A stretch of 63,960 bases of DNA, the filler included, from Reticulomyxa filosa (lineage: Eukaryota; Protista; Foraminifera), in assembly GCA_000512085.1 (NCBI GenBank). It is 16 parts of 16 records of this genome, joined end to end, with 100 filler letters (N's around TTAATTAATTAA, not from the genome) between each part and the next. Parts side by side here need not be neighbours in the genome. Positions count along the whole stretch, not along the records: positions 43,915 to 46,480 come from ASPP01022541.1; 15 more parts are not named here. One strand, 5' to 3'. Positions within the stretch are counted from its first letter, which is position 1. Every line of letters starts with the position of its first letter. Under the pieces are notes generated by a model. The model was not told the origin of the DNA. It did not search any database and saw only the letters and a list, made by a program, of their open reading frames with translations. Below are positions 3,952-63,648 of the stretch, piece by piece. The position numbers were made by a program, and so were the translations under genes.

Positions 3952-6281
3952 TACTTTGCATTCTACTGTATTTTGAAAAACGATGGAATACTTCCTTTAG
4001 TACATCAACATGTGTTGTTTCGGAATCAGTTGGCGATTAATAAATCATCAATGTATACATCAACATCGTCCATATCTCCAAATATAGATGTCATTATACG
4101 CTGGAAAGTTGCCGGAGCATTGGTGAATCCAAAACCCATTCGATTCCATTCATACAATCCCGTTGGTGTAATGAATGCTGTTTTGTACCTATCTTTTTCT
4201 CTAATAGGTACATGTAAGTATCATGAACGTATATCCAATTTTGAAAAGATACGCTTTGACTCTAACTTTTTTAAAAGATCATTTATATTTGGTAATGGCC
4301 ATTCATCTCGAATTGTTGCTTGATTAAGCTTCCTGTAATCAACACACATTCGTAACGATCATCCTTTCTTTTTTACCAATAGTACTGGCGCTGCAAATTG
4401 AGATGAGCTCGTTCGAATAATACCACTTCGTTCTAATTCTGCTACTTGTCGCTTTACTTCTTCTTGGTGCAAATGATTTAATGGATACGGTTTATTTTAA
4501 TTGGTTTTGTCCCCGCTTTCAATTCCAATTTCATTTCTGCATTGGGTATTTGCCCGATATCAAATTGATTTGTTGCTACCATTTTTTGATTATCGATAAG
4601 AAGTTGTTTTACTATCTTTCCTATTTGTGGGTTAGATGTAGTTCCAATTTTTGGTTTCAAATTTGTATTTTCATTTCTTATTTGCTCAATTATTGTTAAG
4701 TCGACATTGTTGCATAAAAATTTTTGTTTAGACTCTATATCATCAGGTGACTCTGGAATTGCATTAAATCTATTACTATCTTGCTTTCTGTTAAGTCCTT
4801 TTTTGCAATCACTTTTGTTACATATTTTATTTTTATGTTCAATTTCTGACGTCAACTCCAAATCTTGACCATCTAAAATGTCATCGGATTGTTTGCGTTC
4901 AAATCTTTCGTTCTCCAATTTTAATGCATAACCCAATCGTCGCAACGCACTCCTCGATAGAATAAAGTTATGTGGTAGATTTGGTACCACATAAAAACTT
5001 TCCTTGAAAATTATCATTGATTTGTTGTTCGCATCATTGATTGTCAACTCCAACTTTTGTTGTAGTGGTATTGATCCACCGGCGTGAATCACAATGAATG
5101 CTCTGGCATCTTTGGTTAGTAATCGATGAAATTTTCGTGCAATTTCGTCACTTACTGCGCATATTGATGCTCCTGTATCAGCAACTGCTCGTATAATTCC
5201 AATTTCCTTGGTTTGTAATTCAATTTCGATTGCATCCGGCTTCTCCATCACCTTGTCGATTCCGAGCATTGGGAGAATGTGTTCAATGTTTTGTTAAACA
5301 TGTTGTTTCTCTAGTACCTGCAATTCATTGCTGTTTTTGGTACAGTCTCGTTGTTTATGGCCTTGTTTGCCGCAACTCCAACATTCATCATTCAACTGTC
5401 GTTTGACGCCTTTATGTTCGTCGTAATGCTTTGTATCTTTTGGAAAACGCTTTTGGTGATCAATATATTTACTTTGATGCCTGTTGCTAATACGATCGCT
5501 GAATTCATTGTATTCATTGTTGCCATATTTACCACCCCATTTTTCGTTAACTGTAAAACGGTTAGTTCTATAGAATGCATTCGGATTATTTCTTTTCTGC
5601 AAATTAATTTTTTTGTTATTCGTAATTCTTTTTGTTTGTTTAAATCTATTTTTTGCTTGAATTTCGTCTTCGAATCTATTTTGAACCTTTTCTAATGCCA
5701 ACTCTGTCTCGTTCAGCGTTGTCGGATTTTGGTCTTACACTAATCTCCTTGTCAATCCGCTCAAAGATTCCAGCAACTCTTCCATCAACCTCTCGTCAGA
5801 TGGTTTTAACCTCTTTCTTGCAGGAACATTACACTCAATTGCATAATCCAGTTCCAATTTTAATGAAAACTTTGCTTGCCTCCATCTCAATAGAATATCA
5901 GCTGGATTTTCTTAAATTTCGTTGTGAACTGCAACAGATCGTTCGTTTTTTCTGCAACGTTATGCTTACCTCCAAACATTTTGCACATCCATGTCATCAA
6001 TAAATTGAATGTTTGAGGATTTTCTGCTATTGCCATCTCCTGTATTTCAATTGCCAAGCATTGAGATAATATATATATATCTCAAGCAAAAGTTGTCTTC
6101 AAGTTTATACGTAGATTTCCATGCGATGAATTGTCTGCGCCAACGAGGAAATTCATCTCGATTACCGTCGAATACATGACGAAAACGGTTATGTGGCTCT
6201 AATGCTAACTTCATTGTTGTCGCACCCAATTCCAAGTTATCCAAGTCATCATCATCATCATCACTCACCATTGGATTACCA
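3952..6281 (-). mobile_element. Degenerate Ty3/gypsy LTR retrotransposon, internal region (gag, protease, RT); fills the contig
   Basis: Contains the gag zinc knuckle CWSCGKQGHKQRDC and the aspartic protease motif VADTGA. RT motifs are SLRMCVDYRKLN, KTAFITPTGLYEWNRMGFGFTNAPATFQR and VYIDDLLI. Domain order is PR-RT. Several stops and 1-nt frameshifts occur (e.g. ~4490, ~4030). Confidence 0.93.
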
Positions 6282-6381: not shown

Positions 6382-7462
6382 TTGTTGACCAGATCGAATA
6401 TCCCATAAACGAATACTTTTATCATCTAATACAGATAATACTGTATTTATACCATTACTAATATTTCTTGATCCATTTGGTACATATTTTACACAATTTA
6501 TTGTATCTTCATGTCCTTTCAATACAAGTAATTGTTTAGTAGTTTCAATATCCCAAATACGAACAGTTTTATCATATGATCCAGAACATATAGTATATCC
6601 ATTACCACCAATTACACCAGCAATACCACTTTTATTGTCATTATCGTCATTCATTTGTAAAGGTGAAAAATCAACACATTGTACAAAATGTTTATGTCCT
6701 CTGAAAACATGTAATGATTTGGGTTTTTCAATATCCCATAAATCAATAAAATCATTAAATGCAGGACATAAATATCTGCCACCATGAAATGGTGAAAATG
6801 TAACGCAATGAACACCTCTTCGATTGTAATCATGTAATATTTTTGATTGTTGATTATCTTTCATATCCCAAAAGCGAACGGTATAATCATAAGATGAAGA
6901 ACAGATAACATTACGATTTTTGGTATGATAATGATAAGGTGAAAATTTCACACTAAGTACAGAACTTGAATGTCCATCGAATAATTGAATTTGTGTATTT
7001 GTCTCTATATCCCATACACGAACTGTGTTATCACTTGAACCAGAACAAAGGAGTTGACGGCCATCGAGTGTTGAATAATCAATACCGTGCACACTAGAAG
7101 TGTGTCCAATACATTTTTTAAGTAATTTAGATGAACGAAAGGTTTCAAGTAAGAAGACATTAGCTGCCTATATTCAATCATAATTGTTTAAACATTTATC
7201 ATTATTAATTAAAAAAAAAAAAACAAATTAAACAGATCAATATTTAACATATTTAATAATAATTATGTCAAAATCTTTGATCCATCCTAATTTAATTTTT
7301 AATGTTCGAGTCCAATATTCAATAATCAATTGGTTCTCTTCTTCTTCGGACTGATTCAATCACAAGTAAATACAATGAGAAAACTAGTTTTTCTAAAGAA
7401 TTGAACTGAAAGCTTACTAATTCTCGCTTCGGTGAAGTTTTTTCCTTTTCAAGAGTAAGCAT
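6382..7462 (-). CDS. WD40-repeat protein of the expanded family, 3' end off contig
   Basis: Exon 1 is MLTLEKEKTSPKREL|gtaagc and exon 2 (7350-7249) is SEEEENQLIIEYWTRTLKIKLGWIKDFDIIIIKY. Exon 3 has repeated GH...CSGSxDxTVRxWD units. Confidence 0.88.
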
Positions 7463-9615: not shown

Positions 9616-10158
9616 TTATGAAGATTTTCTTTGTTGAAAAATGATATCATAATCAGTTGTATCTTGACTTTCAACACAATACCATTCACCATTTTTACTT
9701 TCACGAATATCTTGTCTGATATTGTCTAACATTTGTTTCAGTGGATATCCACTTTTGTATTTGGATTTGACAACCTTTTTCATGCAATTACTAAGCAATG
9801 AAAAATCAGCAATTTGATGTCCTTGAGTAGTTGACCAAATGGTCAAAAATCCATCATCATTATGCCCATATAATGACATACCTTTGTGTATGATTGTTCC
9901 CCTTGTCCTTATTTTATGAGAACTTGGATTATTTTTACCACGACAAACATCAATAATAAATATTTTTGGAAAATCTGTGAAAGAGTCCATTTTGTTACAA
10001 TTAAATGTCGAACGCATTTCGTCAATTGATAAAAGTTTTCCATCGCTTGCCACTAACATATTTCCATCATCTCCATGTCCACAAATTATTGTTATCAATC
10101 CATCATATTTGTTAGTATTTTTGTGAAGTTCATGCTTTACAATTGTTTTGGCTAAAAA
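9616..10158 (-). CDS. Caspase-like (clan CD, C14) cysteine protease, 5' part off contig
   Basis: Has the His motif IICGHGD and Cys motif PKIFIIDVCRG, plus a p10-like region FLTIWSTTQG. It is colinear with the paralog at 62627-63648. Confidence 0.85.
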   Translation of the reverse strand, partial: FLAKTIVKHELHKNTNKYDGLITIICGHGDDGNMLVASDGKLLSIDEMRSTFNCNKMDSFTDFPKIFIIDVCRGKNNPSSHKIRTRGTIIHKGMSLYGHNDDGFLTIWSTTQGHQIADFSLLSNCMKKVVKSKYKSGYPLKQMLDNIRQDIRESKNGEWYCVESQDTTDYDIIFQQRKSS

Positions 10159-35029: not shown

Positions 35030-36123
35030 ATGGGAAGTAGTACAGCAAAGACAAACGGAAGCAAAGAAGAAAAATTGGTAAAAAAGATGTGAATAAATTT
35101 ACAACATTATCAAAGACAAAATAAAAACAAAACAAGTGAAGAAGAGACCAACCAAATATTGAGCAATTGGCTCCGATCTTGTTCAATGCAACGACGATGG
35201 GTGAATGATTTGAACAAAATGATTGCAAAATATGTTAAATACATGTATATATGCATGCACTTGTAATTACCCGTTTACATGAATTGTATTATTGTATCTA
35301 CAGGCCAAATACTTTAAAATCTTGAAAGTGATTGCAAGTCACTCTTATGTAACGAAGAGCATAGCCTTTTCCCCAGATGGAAGCACAATTGTTTCCTCAG
35401 CAAATGATAAAACACTTCGAATTTGGGATGTGAAATCAGACAGAAATAAAAGCATTGAAAGGACATTCAAGTGGTACCAATGATGCATATTTTTCATCAG
35501 ATGGTAGCATGGTTATATCATGTGGAAATGATCGAACAGTTCGATTGTGGGATATACAAACAGGGAAACAAATAAGAGAATTGGAATCCCGTGAATGGAA
35601 TATGATAAAAGCTCGACTTTCATCGGATGGAAATACCATTATAGCCCTTTCAATTGCTTCTTTTATTACATTATGGGATGTAAAATCTGGACAAACAATT
35701 CCAATTCGAGCAAGGACATTAGGCCACGCAGAAGATGTAAATTTTTCACCAGATGGTCAACCGATTGCATTAGCTTTAAACAATAATATAATTGACTTGT
35801 GGAATATACAATCAAACGAAAGGCTAAAACAATTGCAAAGACATTTGGATGCTGTAAGCACAGCAAGCTTTTCTGTGGATGGTCAATTTATTATATCTTG
35901 TGCACTTGATAATACAACTATAATTTGGAATACAATGACCGGAGAACAAATAAAAAAATTTTATGAATAGGTGAATAAAATATATAGTGTAAAATTTGCA
36001 TCGAATGTTCAAATTATTGTTTTATACTTGGGTAATGACACAATCCAATGGCAGGACGTGGAAACAGGACAAGAGCTTGTTATAACATCTTTGGACGATG
36101 GAACCATTTTATTATGGAAATGA
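35030..36123 (+). pseudogene. WD40-repeat gene of the expanded family, frameshifted with premature stop
   Basis: Reads MGSSTAK..., then a module exon ending at 35233, then WD repeats split between ORFs 35292-35483 and 35455-35970. There is a TAG at 35968 with WD-like sequence continuing beyond it. Confidence 0.75.
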
Positions 36124-38957: not shown

Positions 38958-38993
<36 letters not shown>

Positions 38994-43914: not shown

Positions 43915-45209
43915 CCTCCTCCTCCTGGAACGATGATGACGAGCCGGACACACCGGAGTGCGAGGAAAATCGATCAGAATCGGAGTGGTCAAAGTTGGAG
44001 CTTGCATGGTACTGCATGTCGTCGTTAAGGTATTTGCCTTGCATCGTAATGAAATCAGGAGCGTCTCTGAGTACAGAAAACACCTCTTTGATGATATCGT
44101 AGTACGTGCATATTCTCTTGTTGTTTTTACGCAGTTTGAAGAAGCAATGCAAAGCAAGTGCTTCGAACGCAGAGCTGTTCAGACACTTGTCGGTTCGTAT
44201 CAATTTAGTAGTGGAAGGCTCAGTAATAAAGGAAGTCCACCCTTTTAGAAATACAATGCAATTGTGACACTTTTGCGAGATCACTCTCAAGTCGGGACGC
44301 AACAGCACAGCTTTTAGGATCTCTTTGATCGCGTGGCTCGAATCTTCGCCAAAGTCACTCTCAATGTCACACTCCGAAAGTAAGTTGTCGCATATATTGA
44401 CTAGCTCTGTTTTCGGCTCCATCTTGTATACGTGCGTGCTCTGACCTTTGCAATTGAACGACAACAAGTCCACTCGCTTGTGTGTGAAACACATGTTGAT
44501 TTTTATTGGCATGCTATCCCAATGGATTAACAGCCTACACTTTTTGATATTTTCAGAGTACGACAGTACGCGATATTCCCTCCAGTTTCTTTGTTTTCTC
44601 ACTTTTTCTTGGACCCATTCGTACACTTGATCGTAATGGCACTTTTCTTGAGGGCCATCGAACACTAAAAATAAGTTTACATTCTCCTTCCCTTTCATTG
44701 ATAGCTCTGTCAATATGCTGCCTCCAATAAATGCTCCGTACACCTTGTCTCCCCATGGGCACTGGTCTTGCATATTTTTCTCTTTCGTACTTTGTGACAA
44801 CAGGTAGATTAGAAGGTCGTTTGTTATTGCGTACATCCGATCCAACGTTTCTTTGTCGCTTTTTATCTTTTGCAAATTCTCCTCAAGCATTTCAAACTTT
44901 TTGTTTATTCATTCGTTTTATTTTTTTTTTTTCAGGCAATTCCTTTCAAAAATTAATAAATAAATAAAAAGATTAACATATTCAACAACAAGCTTGTCAA
45001 AATCCTGGATCCAACCTATTTTAATGTTTAATATTCGAATCCAATGCTTGATAATTATTTGGATCTCCTCTTCTTCTAACTGGCTCAACCACAAGCACAA
45101 ACCACACAACAAAACATTCTAAAGACGGTCAGCTTTTAAAAAGATTTTTTATCTCTCTAATATGAACAACTACTTGAGCTTTTTTCTTTATTTTTTTTTT
45201 TCTAGACAT
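43915..45209 (-). CDS. OAS/CD-NTase-like nucleotidyltransferase-fold protein with the WD40-family N-terminal module (predicted exons 45209-45174, 45079-44978, 44896-43915); 3' end off contig
   Basis: GGSILTELSMKGKENVNLFLVF has the same spacing as OAS GGSxxxxTxLRGxSDADL. Further matches are RVDLL, CIVFLKGW, SSAFEALAL and IIKEVFSVL. The upstream exons join in frame through GT-AG introns. Confidence 0.65.
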
Positions 45210-45949
45210 GAAAAATGACACTAGAGAAAAAAAATTCACTGAAACGGTCTAAGGAGAAAAAAAAAAAAAAAGAAAAAGAGAAGAACATACAATTAAGCAA
45301 ATTCCAAATTATCACGAAAAGTGAACAATCCAGAAAAAACATATATATAAACTATCTTGAGAGTTTTTGAAGAAATTTGATATATTGAAAAATATTGAAT
45401 ATTTTGTCTTAGCACTGTTCAAGTAGCTGATAATGAAGAATGAGCGAAAATAGTGGTTATTTTTAAACAAATTCACTAAAAAGTGCTTAAAGCTTACAAA
45501 ATATTGAAGACGATTTTATTTGTCGAAATGCGATGTTTTATGACAATTAAGGCAAAAATATGGCAATGCTTATTACTTTTCGATTAATTTAGTGGCCTTA
45601 AATGCCATCATTCTTATTTTTAAAATAATAAATAATTTTTTTTAGTCATAAAAAACATTAATTGAATAAATTGTTTATTTGTTTTGATTACTTAAATTTT
45701 TTTATACATTTTGAAAATACTTTAAAAAAAATGGTAAATTTCATAACTATGAAATAAAAATTGCATTTAAAGATAGTTCCTTCAAAATTTATTTCATCTA
45801 CCAATTTCATAATAATTTTATCAAAATCATCAATCTATCCTAGTTTTATTTCTGAAATTCGAATCTAATATTGAATAATAAATTTCATTTTGACTTTTCA
45901 TTATTTATCATTTATTATTTGTCAACAATATAATTTATTTGTGATTCAT

Positions 45950-46480
45950 CAAAACAAATAAGTAAATAAACAAATCATTACCAATTGCGAGTGATCCCAT
46001 TCACGCACTTTAGTCTTCATATTAGTTGATACTTATTTCTTTATCATCTTTTCCTCCAATGATGTATATGATTATCTCATTCATTCAATATTGCAATACA
46101 ATCAGATAATTGACTGTGTAAAGTGTTTTCAAATGTTATCCATTTGCTTTCTCGCATTGAATACATATGCACTGATTTTGAAGTAATCCATTTATTATCA
46201 TTCCAAGCCAATCCACTAAAAAGTAAGATGATATCATTGATATGCAAATATGCGCAATGATAGGATACTTCAGTGCAATCACAAATAAGTAGTTGATAAG
46301 ACTGAAAGTATTGCTATCTTCATCATATTCAATTAATAGTCCTGTACTTTGGCAAAACAATAGTATTTGATAATTTTGTTTATTTGTTTTTATCATTTCC
46401 TGCTCTTGTTCTTGTCCATTTTTTGAATTTGATACAAAGCAGTGATAATTTATTACATTATCAGTTGGTAATCTACAGTA
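45950..46480 (-). pseudogene. Kelch/beta-propeller-family gene remnant
   Basis: Reads YHCFVSN, QILLFCQSTGLLIEYDEDSNTF and IYIIGGKD with frameshifts. It is similar to 61440-61930. Confidence 0.6.
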
Positions 46481-61439: not shown

Positions 61440-61930
61440 TTTTTTTTAATTCTTACAATATTGTTGATCCTTCTTTAACATTTTTCTGATCACAACAGTA
61501 ATTTGTTATTTATAACTTATTTAGAAAATAATATTAGTATTTTTGATTTAAATATATTTCAATTTATTAAACATGATACTTTATCAATTGATAATGAAAT
61601 ATTTTATCATTACTTTGTATTAAATTCAGAAAATGGACAAGTACAAGAAATGATGAAACAAATAAACAAAATTATCAAATGCTGTTGTTTTGTTTGAATG
61701 TGATGAAGATAATAACACTTTTCAATTTCATCAACTACGTGTTGTAAGAATAGTGCATCATTCTATGCATAATACATATGTTGTCATTTTATTCTTTGAT
61801 GGACGGAGTTGGAATGGTAATAAATTCGTTTATTCAAAATTAGTGCACAATTATTCAATTCAAGAAAAAATGGATTACATTTAAAGATATATTGCCTATT
61901 CCATTGGGCCATTGTTTTAGGATATTGGAT
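61440..61930 (+). pseudogene. Kelch/beta-propeller-family gene remnant among other gene debris
   Basis: Reads LLFITYLENNISIFDLNIFQFIKHDTL...YHYFVLNSENGQVQEMMK...ECDEDNNTFQFHQL with frameshifts. It is a paralog of 45950-46480. Confidence 0.6.
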
Positions 61931-62626
61931 GAAAATAACAGTTATATACAGACAAGTCGATAGTAAAAGAAAGCGAATATTATTAAAGTTGAAGACAGAG
62001 AGTAGCTCTAGCTTTTTGGCCAGAAATGATTTGACAAAAATTGAGTGTTGCAATTCAACATATAAGGAACAAATCAATCATTATATTTGTTTAATTTGCA
62101 AACAGCACAGTCTAGTTCAACATGAAGTAATATCTTTGTTTTCAAAGATTTTCAACAATATCAATACTTAAAATCTGTTGCAATTTATTTTGATTTTTAA
62201 TTCTTTAAAAAATATTGAACTCAACTTTTTAAATTTTTTTAAATAACAAAGTAAGATAGAACACATCTTTTAATGCTTGCATTCAATCAAATCAAACAAG
62301 TTTAATATCAACTTACTTTTCAAACAAAAACACACCTCCATTTCTTATTTGACAAAAAGTAAATTATCCCCAAATACGAATGGGACCAGAACACAAATAT
62401 CTACCAGCATTAAATGGTGAAAATTCAATACCACAAACACCATCAGTATGTNNNNNNNNNNNNNNNNNNNNNNNNNNNNNNNNNNNNNNNNNNNNTTAAT
62501 TAATTAANNNNNNNNNNNNNNNNNNNNNNNNNNNNNNNNNNNNNNNNNNNNTTTTTTTTGCTGTCTTTTGTTTCTAAACGAAAAAAAAAAAAACACACAA
62601 AACGCACAAATATTCGAACAAATACA

Positions 62627-63648
62627 TTAGGTACATTTTTCATTAGTTTTCTTTTGAGAGAGGACAATATCATAAAAGCTCGTGTCTTGAGTTTCGACAC
62701 AGTACCACTCCCCGTGTTCAATGTGCCGAATATTCATTCGGACTTGATGCAGCATTTGTGGGAGCACACAGTCAACGTTGGAACTTGACATGGTGTTGTG
62801 CATACATTCACTTAGTAAAGAAAGATCAGGGAGAATATGACCCCTCGTGGTCGACCATATGGTTAGAAACCCATCATCATGGTGTCTACATATTGAACTG
62901 TTATTGTGTTTTTCATGGCATGGGACCCTCGCATTGGAAATGCAGAACGTTTGGGAGCATCTTTCCCACGACAAGCGTCAACTATAAAAATTTTGGGACA
63001 ATTTTTCAATGATTCCATTTGATAACAATCAAAGCGATGACGAATGCTATCAATATACGTGAATCTACCATCACTTGTTACCAACACATCCTCATCATCT
63101 CCATGGCCACATAAAATAACAATCAATGCATCATAGCTGTTTTTATTTTCTTGCAATTCTTTATCTTTAATCAATTTCTCAAAAAATTCATGAATGTCTG
63201 TTTTGGTCATATTTGGCGTTTGATTGCATACAAAATCATATTTCAATTTGTTTTCAAACATATCTTTGAAATTTGCCATATCTTTTTCTTGCACTTTTGC
63301 AAGCTTGCACCACCCAGTTTCTTCATTGTACTCACTGATTCCAATCATTGCAACTAATGCATTGCGAACCACTCGAACATTTGAGTTTGCAAAAGAGCGA
63401 GGAGAAGACTTCCAAACGAGCTGAAAAGATGGATGTTGTGATGCTTCAAATGCCCGAATGAGATCATTTTCCGTCTCAATTGGCTGTTTACTATTTCGGT
63501 CGACAATCTCCACCATCAATTTCATTCGAACCATACGTTCAAAATCGTCCCAATCCAACAGTTTACAAACATTATCATACAACTCTGAAAACGTCGGCTT
63601 GTTCATCTTTATCTTTGCTTTCGTCGAGTTTAGCCTTACTTCTGCCAT
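62627..63648 (-). CDS. Caspase-like (C14) protease with PB1-like N-terminal domain; one frameshift in the p20-p10 linker
   Basis: Contains ALVAMIGISEY, VILCGHGD and PKIFIVDACRG. The p10 region FLTIWSTTRG...GEWYCVETQDT continues in the -1 frame (ORF 62627-62974) and matches the paralog at 9616. Confidence 0.85.

What the first reader, a model, noticed from the sequence alone, without database searches (positions are those of the whole stretch)
43915..45209. WD40-family N-terminal cassette apparently spliced onto an OAS/CD-NTase-like domain (exon shuffling or integrated decoy)
SEEN: MSRKKKIKKKAQ|gta, the 102-nt module exon and an 81-nt GT-AG intron (44977-44897) join in phase 0 to FEMLEENL..., a ~325-codon uninterrupted frame unrelated to WD40. 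KNOWN: OAS, cGAS and CD-NTases are nucleic-acid or infection sensors. INFERENCE: a nucleic-acid-binding fold has replaced the propeller as the recognition unit of the adaptor module, which could couple RNA/DNA or viral-protein sensing to a ligase. An assembly chimera, or an insertion next to a dead WD40 gene start, is a real alternative.
Basis: partly seen in the sequence, partly recalled or inferred. Interest (0 to 1): 0.72.

Follow-up and report, generated by a model that had tools for sequence, protein, structure and literature searches.

The report
Shuffled exon beside dead OAS-like gene
In a foraminiferan-type protist, a short exon that normally heads WD40 proteins sits in frame just ahead of a gene that likely encodes a catalytically dead relative of the antiviral enzyme OAS, so the two are probably spliced into one adaptor-plus-binding protein, but no transcript has been seen and the gene may simply start on its own.

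Summary
On a 2,566-bp contig, a 12-codon exon, a 94-nt intron, an intact 34-codon module exon and an 81-nt GT-AG intron join in phase 0 to a 327-codon frame that runs off the contig.

The module is a cassette of Reticulomyxa propeller proteins: 43 of 47 carriers are WD40, and it also follows Kelch repeats. A dead Kelch-plus-module copy lies about 0.6 kb upstream on the same contig.

The frame is likely an OAS/DZF-like nucleotidyltransferase fold. It keeps Gly-Ser and the conserved Lys, but both Asp of the DxD motif are Asn, as in a paralog. So it is likely a pseudo-enzyme, not an active OAS or CD-NTase.

The fusion is unproven. No RNA run was listed. None of 47 module proteins has the domain, none of 5 paralogs has the module, and two paralogs have their own N-termini. 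The acceptor is AAG, and an out-of-frame ATG lies inside the intron.

Odds: spliced fusion 0.45, independent gene beside a remnant 0.35, misjoin 0.15. Neither a ligase role for the module nor nucleic-acid binding is shown. New variant of a known kind (OASL-like logic).

The parts
45174..45209 (-). Predicted first exon, 12 codons; the only in-frame ATG for the module. Lys-rich and unlike the usual family first exon
   Evidence: weak DNA likeness to the first exon of the WD40 copy at 7462 (z 2.9, 2 of 500 shuffles); a similar peptide appears upstream of the module in 4 of 47 family gene models
45080..45173 (-). Intron 1, 94 nt, GT..CAG, phase 0, homologous to the WD40-family intron
   Evidence: z 4.6, 0 of 500 shuffles
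44978..45079 (-). Intact 34-codon module exon shared with Reticulomyxa WD40 and Kelch proteins; function inferred (adaptor box)
44897..44977 (-). Predicted intron 2, 81 nt, GT..AAG, phase 0; holds an out-of-frame AAG at 44943 and the A12 run (44932-44921)
   Evidence: same length as the family intron at 7248-7168
44892..44912 (-). Six-codon frame with an ATG behind the A-run, one base out of frame with the long ORF: possible own start of the NTase-like gene, or its relic
   Evidence: sequence; the reading is inference
43915..44896 (-). 327-codon frame, likely OAS/DZF-like nucleotidyltransferase-fold pseudo-enzyme, 3' end cut by the contig end; the public gene model starts at the ATG at 44890
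44675..44722 (-). Degenerate active-site motif: G59-S60 kept; N72 and N74 where 12 of 12 bacterial CD-NTases have Asp
44237..44245 (-). K218-x-W220 of the C-lobe helix, aligned with K/R-x-W of 12 of 12 CD-NTases and kept in all 4 paralogs that cover it
45799..46471 (-). Broken Kelch-family gene with a dead C-terminal module copy (about 45891-45805; both Trp codons are stops), same contig and strand
   Evidence: tblastn of P0050, E 4e-16; module HMM E 5e-10; Kelch match of P0050

Best explanation
A copy of the 5' end of a WD40-family gene (first exon, intron, 34-residue module exon, donor) lies in frame ahead of a gene for a likely catalytically dead OAS/DZF-like protein, and is likely spliced to it, giving a predicted module-plus-pseudo-enzyme of at least 373 residues. 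Shown: the exon layout, the intact module, its reuse on WD40 and Kelch scaffolds, the paralog family, and the loss of the DxD aspartates. Inferred, step by step: (1) a duplication or rearrangement put the family's promoter and 5' exons in front of the NTase-like gene; (2) splicing at 44977/44896 bypasses that gene's old start, of which the out-of-frame ATG at 44912 would be the relic; (3) the module works as a docking box for a common partner, most likely a cullin-ligase adaptor, a guess from its position at either end of propellers; (4) the dead NTase fold acts as a binding domain for a nucleotide, RNA or protein, as NF45 and OASL do, and makes no second messenger.
For: Both introns are phase 0 and the donor matches two WD40-linked copies; intron 2 has the family length, 81 against 81 and 71 nt. 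The module is intact and scores inside the family range, while the copy 0.8 kb upstream has two stops. The module is shuffled in this genome: 43 of 47 carriers have WD40 domains, P0050 is Kelch-module-WD40, and the upstream pseudogene is Kelch-module. Only 44 nt separate the donor from the A-run, leaving little room for a separate promoter. The frame is unbroken over 327 codons, whereas paralogs P0053 and P0003 switch frame. AAG after an A-run also precedes long frames at 38991 and 41486 (candidate acceptors, unverified). Fold: ESM Atlas top hit OAS1-type, 0.96 with 189 of 256 features, DZF 0.93; motifs are colinear with 12 CD-NTases; a model made with those CD-NTases in the alignment reaches pLDDT 62.5 and ranks porcine OAS1 first (E 4.5e-6, TMq 0.54; partly circular).
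Against: 0 of 47 module proteins match the NTase-family HMM (best E 0.21) and 0 of 5 paralogs match the module HMM. P0053 and P0004 have their own N-terminal residues ahead of the shared Glu-Met, though the 10 residues before it are not significantly alike (151 of 2000 shuffles). The public gene model of this contig starts at 44890 and ignores the module. The acceptor is AAG, while 9 of 9 other junctions I called by eye are CAG/TAG, and an out-of-frame AAG comes first. The first exon is atypical and the module has two residues seen in 0 of 44 copies. 4 of 47 module proteins stop soon after the module, and the contig holds family debris, so orphan copies occur. Fold evidence by sequence is weak: best hhalign E 0.039, probability 1.3%; against the wider set 6 of 30 shuffles and the reversed control did as well or better. 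The domain is about neutral (42 K+R, 41 D+E), which does not suggest a strong RNA groove.
Confidence: 0.45

Rival explanations
1. The DNA is real but there is no fusion. A truncated 5' remnant of a WD40-family gene lies against an independent pseudo-OAS gene, which starts at 44890, or at 44912 if one base is miscalled.
For: The paralogs carry no module and two have their own N-termini. An ATG follows an A-run 22 nt upstream of the annotated start. Frame switches occur in paralog models, so one-base slips are common in this family or this assembly. Orphan and dead modules exist. The acceptor is AAG. The public model starts at 44890.
Against: Almost no room for a separate promoter; the module and both of its splice sites are intact; the join is in frame at the family intron length.
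Confidence: 0.35
2. The contig is a chimera: two loci of a repeat-rich, fragmented assembly were joined at or near the A12/T12 run.
For: The window is made of 16 short contigs joined by 15 spacers. Neither half of intron 2 alone is significantly like the family intron (z 0.9 and 1.2). GC3 changes from 0.35 to 0.55 across the junction. The module family is large and near-identical.
Against: A 12-base run is a short overlap for an assembler (general knowledge). The result is an in-frame intron of family length. The same GC contrast is expected from a real rearrangement.
Confidence: 0.15
3. The domain is an active OAS/CD-NTase sensor enzyme, or a recently integrated viral or bacterial decoy gene.
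For: OAS-type top hits. One uncharacterised Hyperionvirus protein matches the seeded model at E 2.5e-5 and 12% identity.
Against: Both DxD aspartates are Asn in the locus and in P0004, against Asp in 12 of 12 CD-NTases. Four paralogs are named Reticulomyxa filosa proteins. GC and GC3 (0.43, 0.55) are like other host genes in the window.
Confidence: 0.05

Closest known systems
Human OASL (PMC4446440; passages read)
   Same: A catalytically dead OAS-like domain with an incomplete acidic triad, joined to a small module that links it to the ubiquitin world.
   Different: OASL has C-terminal ubiquitin-like domains and a tested basic dsRNA groove. Here the module is N-terminal and unrelated, the DxD pair is lost, and neither RNA binding nor the fusion is shown.
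DZF proteins NF45/NF90 (ILF2/ILF3) (PMC3467086; passages read)
   Same: Nucleotidyltransferase fold without the catalytic acids ('pseudotransferase'); NF45 still binds NTPs. Atlas 0.93 and Foldseek rank 4.
   Different: No Pfam DZF match; a dimerisation region cannot be judged as the gene is cut; DZF proteins carry no such module.
Eukaryotic OAS superfamily and clade C CD-NTases, CdnC/CdnD (PMC10732462; passages and one supplement table read)
   Same: Colinear N-helix, GS, DxD-position strand, K-x-W helix and S-x-x-E helix. That paper finds OAS-like proteins in 8 of 12 supergroups and lists three Reticulomyxa CD-NTase hits.
   Different: No DxD, no PF10421/PF18144 match. Whether any of the three listed proteins belongs to this family could not be checked, because the FASTA and tree files are unreadable here.
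F-box-WD40 and SOCS/BC-box substrate receptors of cullin ligases
   Same: A short helical box at one end of interchangeable propeller domains in an expanded family (F-box plus WD40 layout: PMC12475580 passages; SOCS layout recalled).
   Different: No sequence match of the module to F-box or SOCS box was obtained; the likeness is positional and by eye only.

Membership tests
OAS / CD-NTase enzymes | Two-lobed Pol-beta nucleotidyltransferase fold | tested here: met
   Atlas 0.96 with 189 of 256 features; colinear motifs; seeded model TMq 0.54 to OAS1 (circular in part). The unseeded model was uninformative.
OAS / CD-NTase enzymes | GS motif and conserved Lys of the C-lobe helix | tested here: met
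   G59-S60 and K218 align with 12 of 12 and 11 of 12 CD-NTases.
OAS / CD-NTase enzymes | Catalytic acidic triad (DxD plus a third Asp) | tested here: not met
   N72 and N74 against Asp in 12 of 12. The third position is ambiguous: N134 by my hairpin register (Asp in 3 of 4 paralogs covering it), or D143 in the MAFFT alignment (not kept in paralogs).
OAS / CD-NTase enzymes | Pfam OAS1_C, SMODS or NTP_transf_2 match | tested here: inconclusive
   No hit for the locus or paralogs; the family is divergent and the gene is cut at its 3' end.
OAS / OASL dsRNA sensors | Basic dsRNA-binding groove | tested here: inconclusive
   Only sequence charge could be computed: pI 7.6, 42 K+R against 41 D+E; no surface map.
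OAS / CD-NTase enzymes | Synthesis of 2-5A or cyclic oligonucleotides | not testable with these tools
   Needs an enzyme assay.
DZF (NF45/NF90/ZFR) | NTase fold lacking catalytic acids | tested here: met
   definition from PMC3467086.
DZF (NF45/NF90/ZFR) | DZF_N/DZF_C profile match and C-terminal dimerisation helices | tested here: inconclusive
   No Pfam hit; the C-terminus is missing from the contig.
Reticulomyxa WD40/Kelch module | 34-residue W-x-R...GW-x-x-x-FD exon with a phase-0 donor after Tyr | tested here: met
F-box / SOCS-box ligase adaptors | Profile match of the module to F-box or SOCS/BC box | tested here: inconclusive
   No Pfam family for 3 of 3 copies, no usable Atlas hit, only chance PDB hits; a 34-residue query has little power.
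F-box / SOCS-box ligase adaptors | Binding to Skp1 or Elongin C | not tested
   No partner sequence of this organism was at hand.
Spliced fusion gene | Transcript across 44978/44896 | not testable with these tools
   No sequencing run could be laid on the locus.

The most novel reading that the evidence does not exclude
Foraminifera have their own ligase-docking box, a phase-0 exon shuffled across hundreds of WD40 and Kelch receptors. Here it has captured a dead OAS domain, making a substrate receptor that would recognise RNA, 2-5A or nucleotides and send the bound complex to ubiquitin-dependent destruction: innate sensing wired directly to a cullin ligase, with no second messenger.
Probability: 0.1. 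Interest if true: 0.75.

Novelty: new variant of a known kind. Interest (0 to 1): 0.42.

Why it matters
If spliced, it is a recent exon-shuffling event caught in the act, and a protist parallel to OASL: a dead OAS domain used as a binding module with an attached signalling tag. Even without the fusion, two things stand. There is a small family of likely OAS-like pseudo-enzymes in a foraminiferan. There is also a 34-residue box reused at either end of WD40 and Kelch propellers, for which no family match was obtained here. The box is probably the more general object to study.

Tried and rejected
RNA/DNA runs: none was listed for the contig, so no reads could be laid; this is no evidence either way. 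No whole genome is held. The ORF gave no family in Pfam, PADLOC or NCBIfam, and only chance hits in PDB sequences and plasmids. Scans for related loci found nothing in metagenome contigs, viral contigs or GTDB genomes, so no paralog DNA could be read. The search for shorter homologs covered only 30-84 residues and found none; proteins over 573 residues were covered only by the representative search. P0054 (catfish, E 3e-5) was rejected as a repeat-driven chance hit. The first AlphaFold model (4 sequences, pLDDT 39.5) gave no Foldseek match at E<=0.001 and only unrelated VIA matches, best Z 7.4. VIA searches of the second model were never run because the machine was busy. PF10421 matched 0 of 401 and 0 of 301 bacterial genomes, with silent controls. 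hhalign against six CD-NTase groups gave probabilities of 0.15-3.6%; two groups beat all 25 shuffles, four did not; global mode gave nothing; the tool version gave E 0.56. The module gave no Pfam, Atlas or meaningful PDB match. No complex was predicted, for want of a partner. Earlier scan findings: nothing relevant in 4 look-ups. Literature: 0 papers hold Reticulomyxa + oligoadenylate or Reticulomyxa + Kelch + F-box; some searches were seen as listings, with no title on this module or family. The library lacks most subscription papers, so this does not show that it is unpublished.

Full report
Setting. The window is a string of 16 short contigs joined by 15 N/linker spacers, and the finding lies on one of 2,566 bp, 43915-46480. 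All 47 module relatives and four of the five paralogs of the long frame are named Reticulomyxa filosa proteins by their sources, so the window is from that foraminiferan or a close relative. No whole genome is held.

Observation. Against the WD40 gene at 7462-6382 in the same window, the module (z 14.6), intron 1 (z 4.6) and more weakly exon 1 (z 2.9) are alike at DNA level. Intron 2 has the same length, 81 nt, and scores z 2.9 as a whole, but neither half is significant alone. A third, divergent copy at 35132-35233 has the same donor and a 71-nt intron before WD40 repeats.

The module. A search with two copies gave 47 proteins among 82 candidates. 43 carry WD40-type domains and 4 have none and end soon after the module. 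The locus copy scores 104.8, within the 52.9-122.0 range of the 44 copies that my pattern could cut out (3 of 47 were dropped), with two residues seen in none of them. The module is not only N-terminal: P0050 reads Kelch-module-WD40. On the locus contig itself, 46471-45799 is a broken Kelch gene ending in a module copy with both Trp codons as stops. So the exon is shuffled among propeller genes, and debris of the family lies beside the locus. What the module binds is not shown. That it is a ligase-docking box is an inference from its position; the likeness to SOCS/BC boxes is recalled and by eye.

The long frame. It has five relatives: P0002, P0003, P0004, P0053 and the metagenome protein P0052, at 39-56% identity in the alignment. 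The ESM Atlas puts OAS1-type clusters first (0.96, 189 of 256 features; shuffled proteins reach 0.95 once in 100) and DZF at 0.93. I fetched bacterial CD-NTases (two of them match CdnC or related structures or align with such). In an alignment with 12 of them the motifs fall in order: GS, the DxD strand, K-x-W and S-x-x-E. G59-S60, K218 and W220 are kept, while positions 72 and 74 are Asn in the locus and in P0004 against Asp in 12 of 12. The third acid is ambiguous, N134 or D143.

Limits of the fold evidence. Profile-profile evidence is weak. The best was E 0.039, above 30 of 30 block shuffles and in the right register; with the wider set, 6 of 30 shuffles and the reversed control did as well or better (similar). 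A model from the family alone failed (pLDDT 39.5). A model whose alignment held the 12 CD-NTases reached pLDDT 62.5 and pTM 0.61 and matched porcine OAS1 first (E 4.5e-6, TMq 0.54, rmsd 7.3), with poly(A) polymerase, ILF2/ILF3, CdnC and cGAS within about tenfold. This is circular for the fold and does not settle the subfamily.

Reading of the domain. The three acids are what OAS and related enzymes need for catalysis (PMC4446440 and PMC3467086, passages), so the domain is likely a pseudo-enzyme, like OASL or NF45. Its charge is about neutral. GC 0.43 and GC3 0.55 resemble ordinary genes of the window (P450 0.44 and 0.52) and not the WD40 exons (GC3 0.12-0.20), so it is likely a host gene and not a fresh insert.

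Is it fused? For: intact module and splice sites next to a dead copy, phase 0 at the family intron length, little room for a separate promoter, an unbroken frame where paralogs P0053 and P0003 switch frame, and AAG-after-A-run sites ahead of other long frames (5 AAG among 14 rows passing my filter, of 121 sites, ours included). Against: 0 of 47 module proteins carry the domain and 0 of 5 paralogs carry the module; P0053 and P0004 have their own residues ahead of the shared Glu-Met; the public model starts at 44890; the other 9 junctions I called by eye end in CAG or TAG; an out-of-frame AAG comes first; and an ATG at 44912 behind the A-run is one base out of frame. That ATG cuts both ways: it may be the gene's own start with a miscalled base, or a relic made idle by splicing. 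The first C/TAG acceptor, 44762, is also in frame and would give a shorter fusion. DNA of the paralogs could not be obtained.

Known context. PMC10732462 (passages) reports OAS-like proteins in 8 of 12 eukaryotic supergroups. Its supplement table lists three Reticulomyxa CD-NTase hits in the 30 of 34 places that I saw; their sequences are in files that could not be read, so this family may already be in that set. Two targeted searches found no paper on an OAS-like protein or a Kelch/F-box module in this organism.

Verdict. The best reading is a likely spliced module-plus-pseudo-OAS gene (0.45), close to an independent pseudo-OAS gene beside a WD40 remnant (0.35), then a misjoin (0.15) and an active or foreign enzyme (0.05). 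It is a new variant of a known kind, with interest 0.42. The boldest reading, a sensor wired to a ubiquitin ligase, has about 0.1.

Noticed in passing
window 45799-46471 (-): Broken Kelch-family gene with a dead C-terminal module copy; frameshifts, and both Trp codons of the module are stops.
   Followed up: yes
window 6382-7462 (-) and 35030-35970 (+): Two more module-WD40 genes; the second has a very divergent module with the same donor. A further weak module-like stretch lies near 2646 (-), E 0.06.
   Followed up: partly
window 61494-61951 (+): Another frameshifted fragment of the same Kelch family (tblastn E 2e-17 to P0050).
   Followed up: no
window 62866-63648 (-) and 9619-10155 (-): Two caspase-domain (Peptidase_C14) genes. 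By eye both keep the His-Gly motif and a Cys motif; the first has an unexplained N-terminal region of about 100 residues.
   Followed up: no
window 4478-6003 (-): Gag-like frame with a CCHC knuckle followed by a retroviral-type aspartyl protease frame: an LTR retrotransposon fragment.
   Followed up: no
P0002, P0003, P0004, P0053: Several paralog gene models switch reading frame relative to the locus (P0053 and P0003 by score, P0004 by eye): pseudogenes or one-base assembly slips.
   Followed up: partly
window 45187-45208 and 44917-44938: A 22-nt low-complexity repeat (86%) links the start of exon 1 with the A-run inside intron 2; it could have served as microhomology or be chance.
   Followed up: no
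window 38991 (+) and 41486 (+): Candidate AAG splice acceptors directly after long A-runs, ahead of long frames; this organism may use A-rich intron ends.
   Followed up: partly
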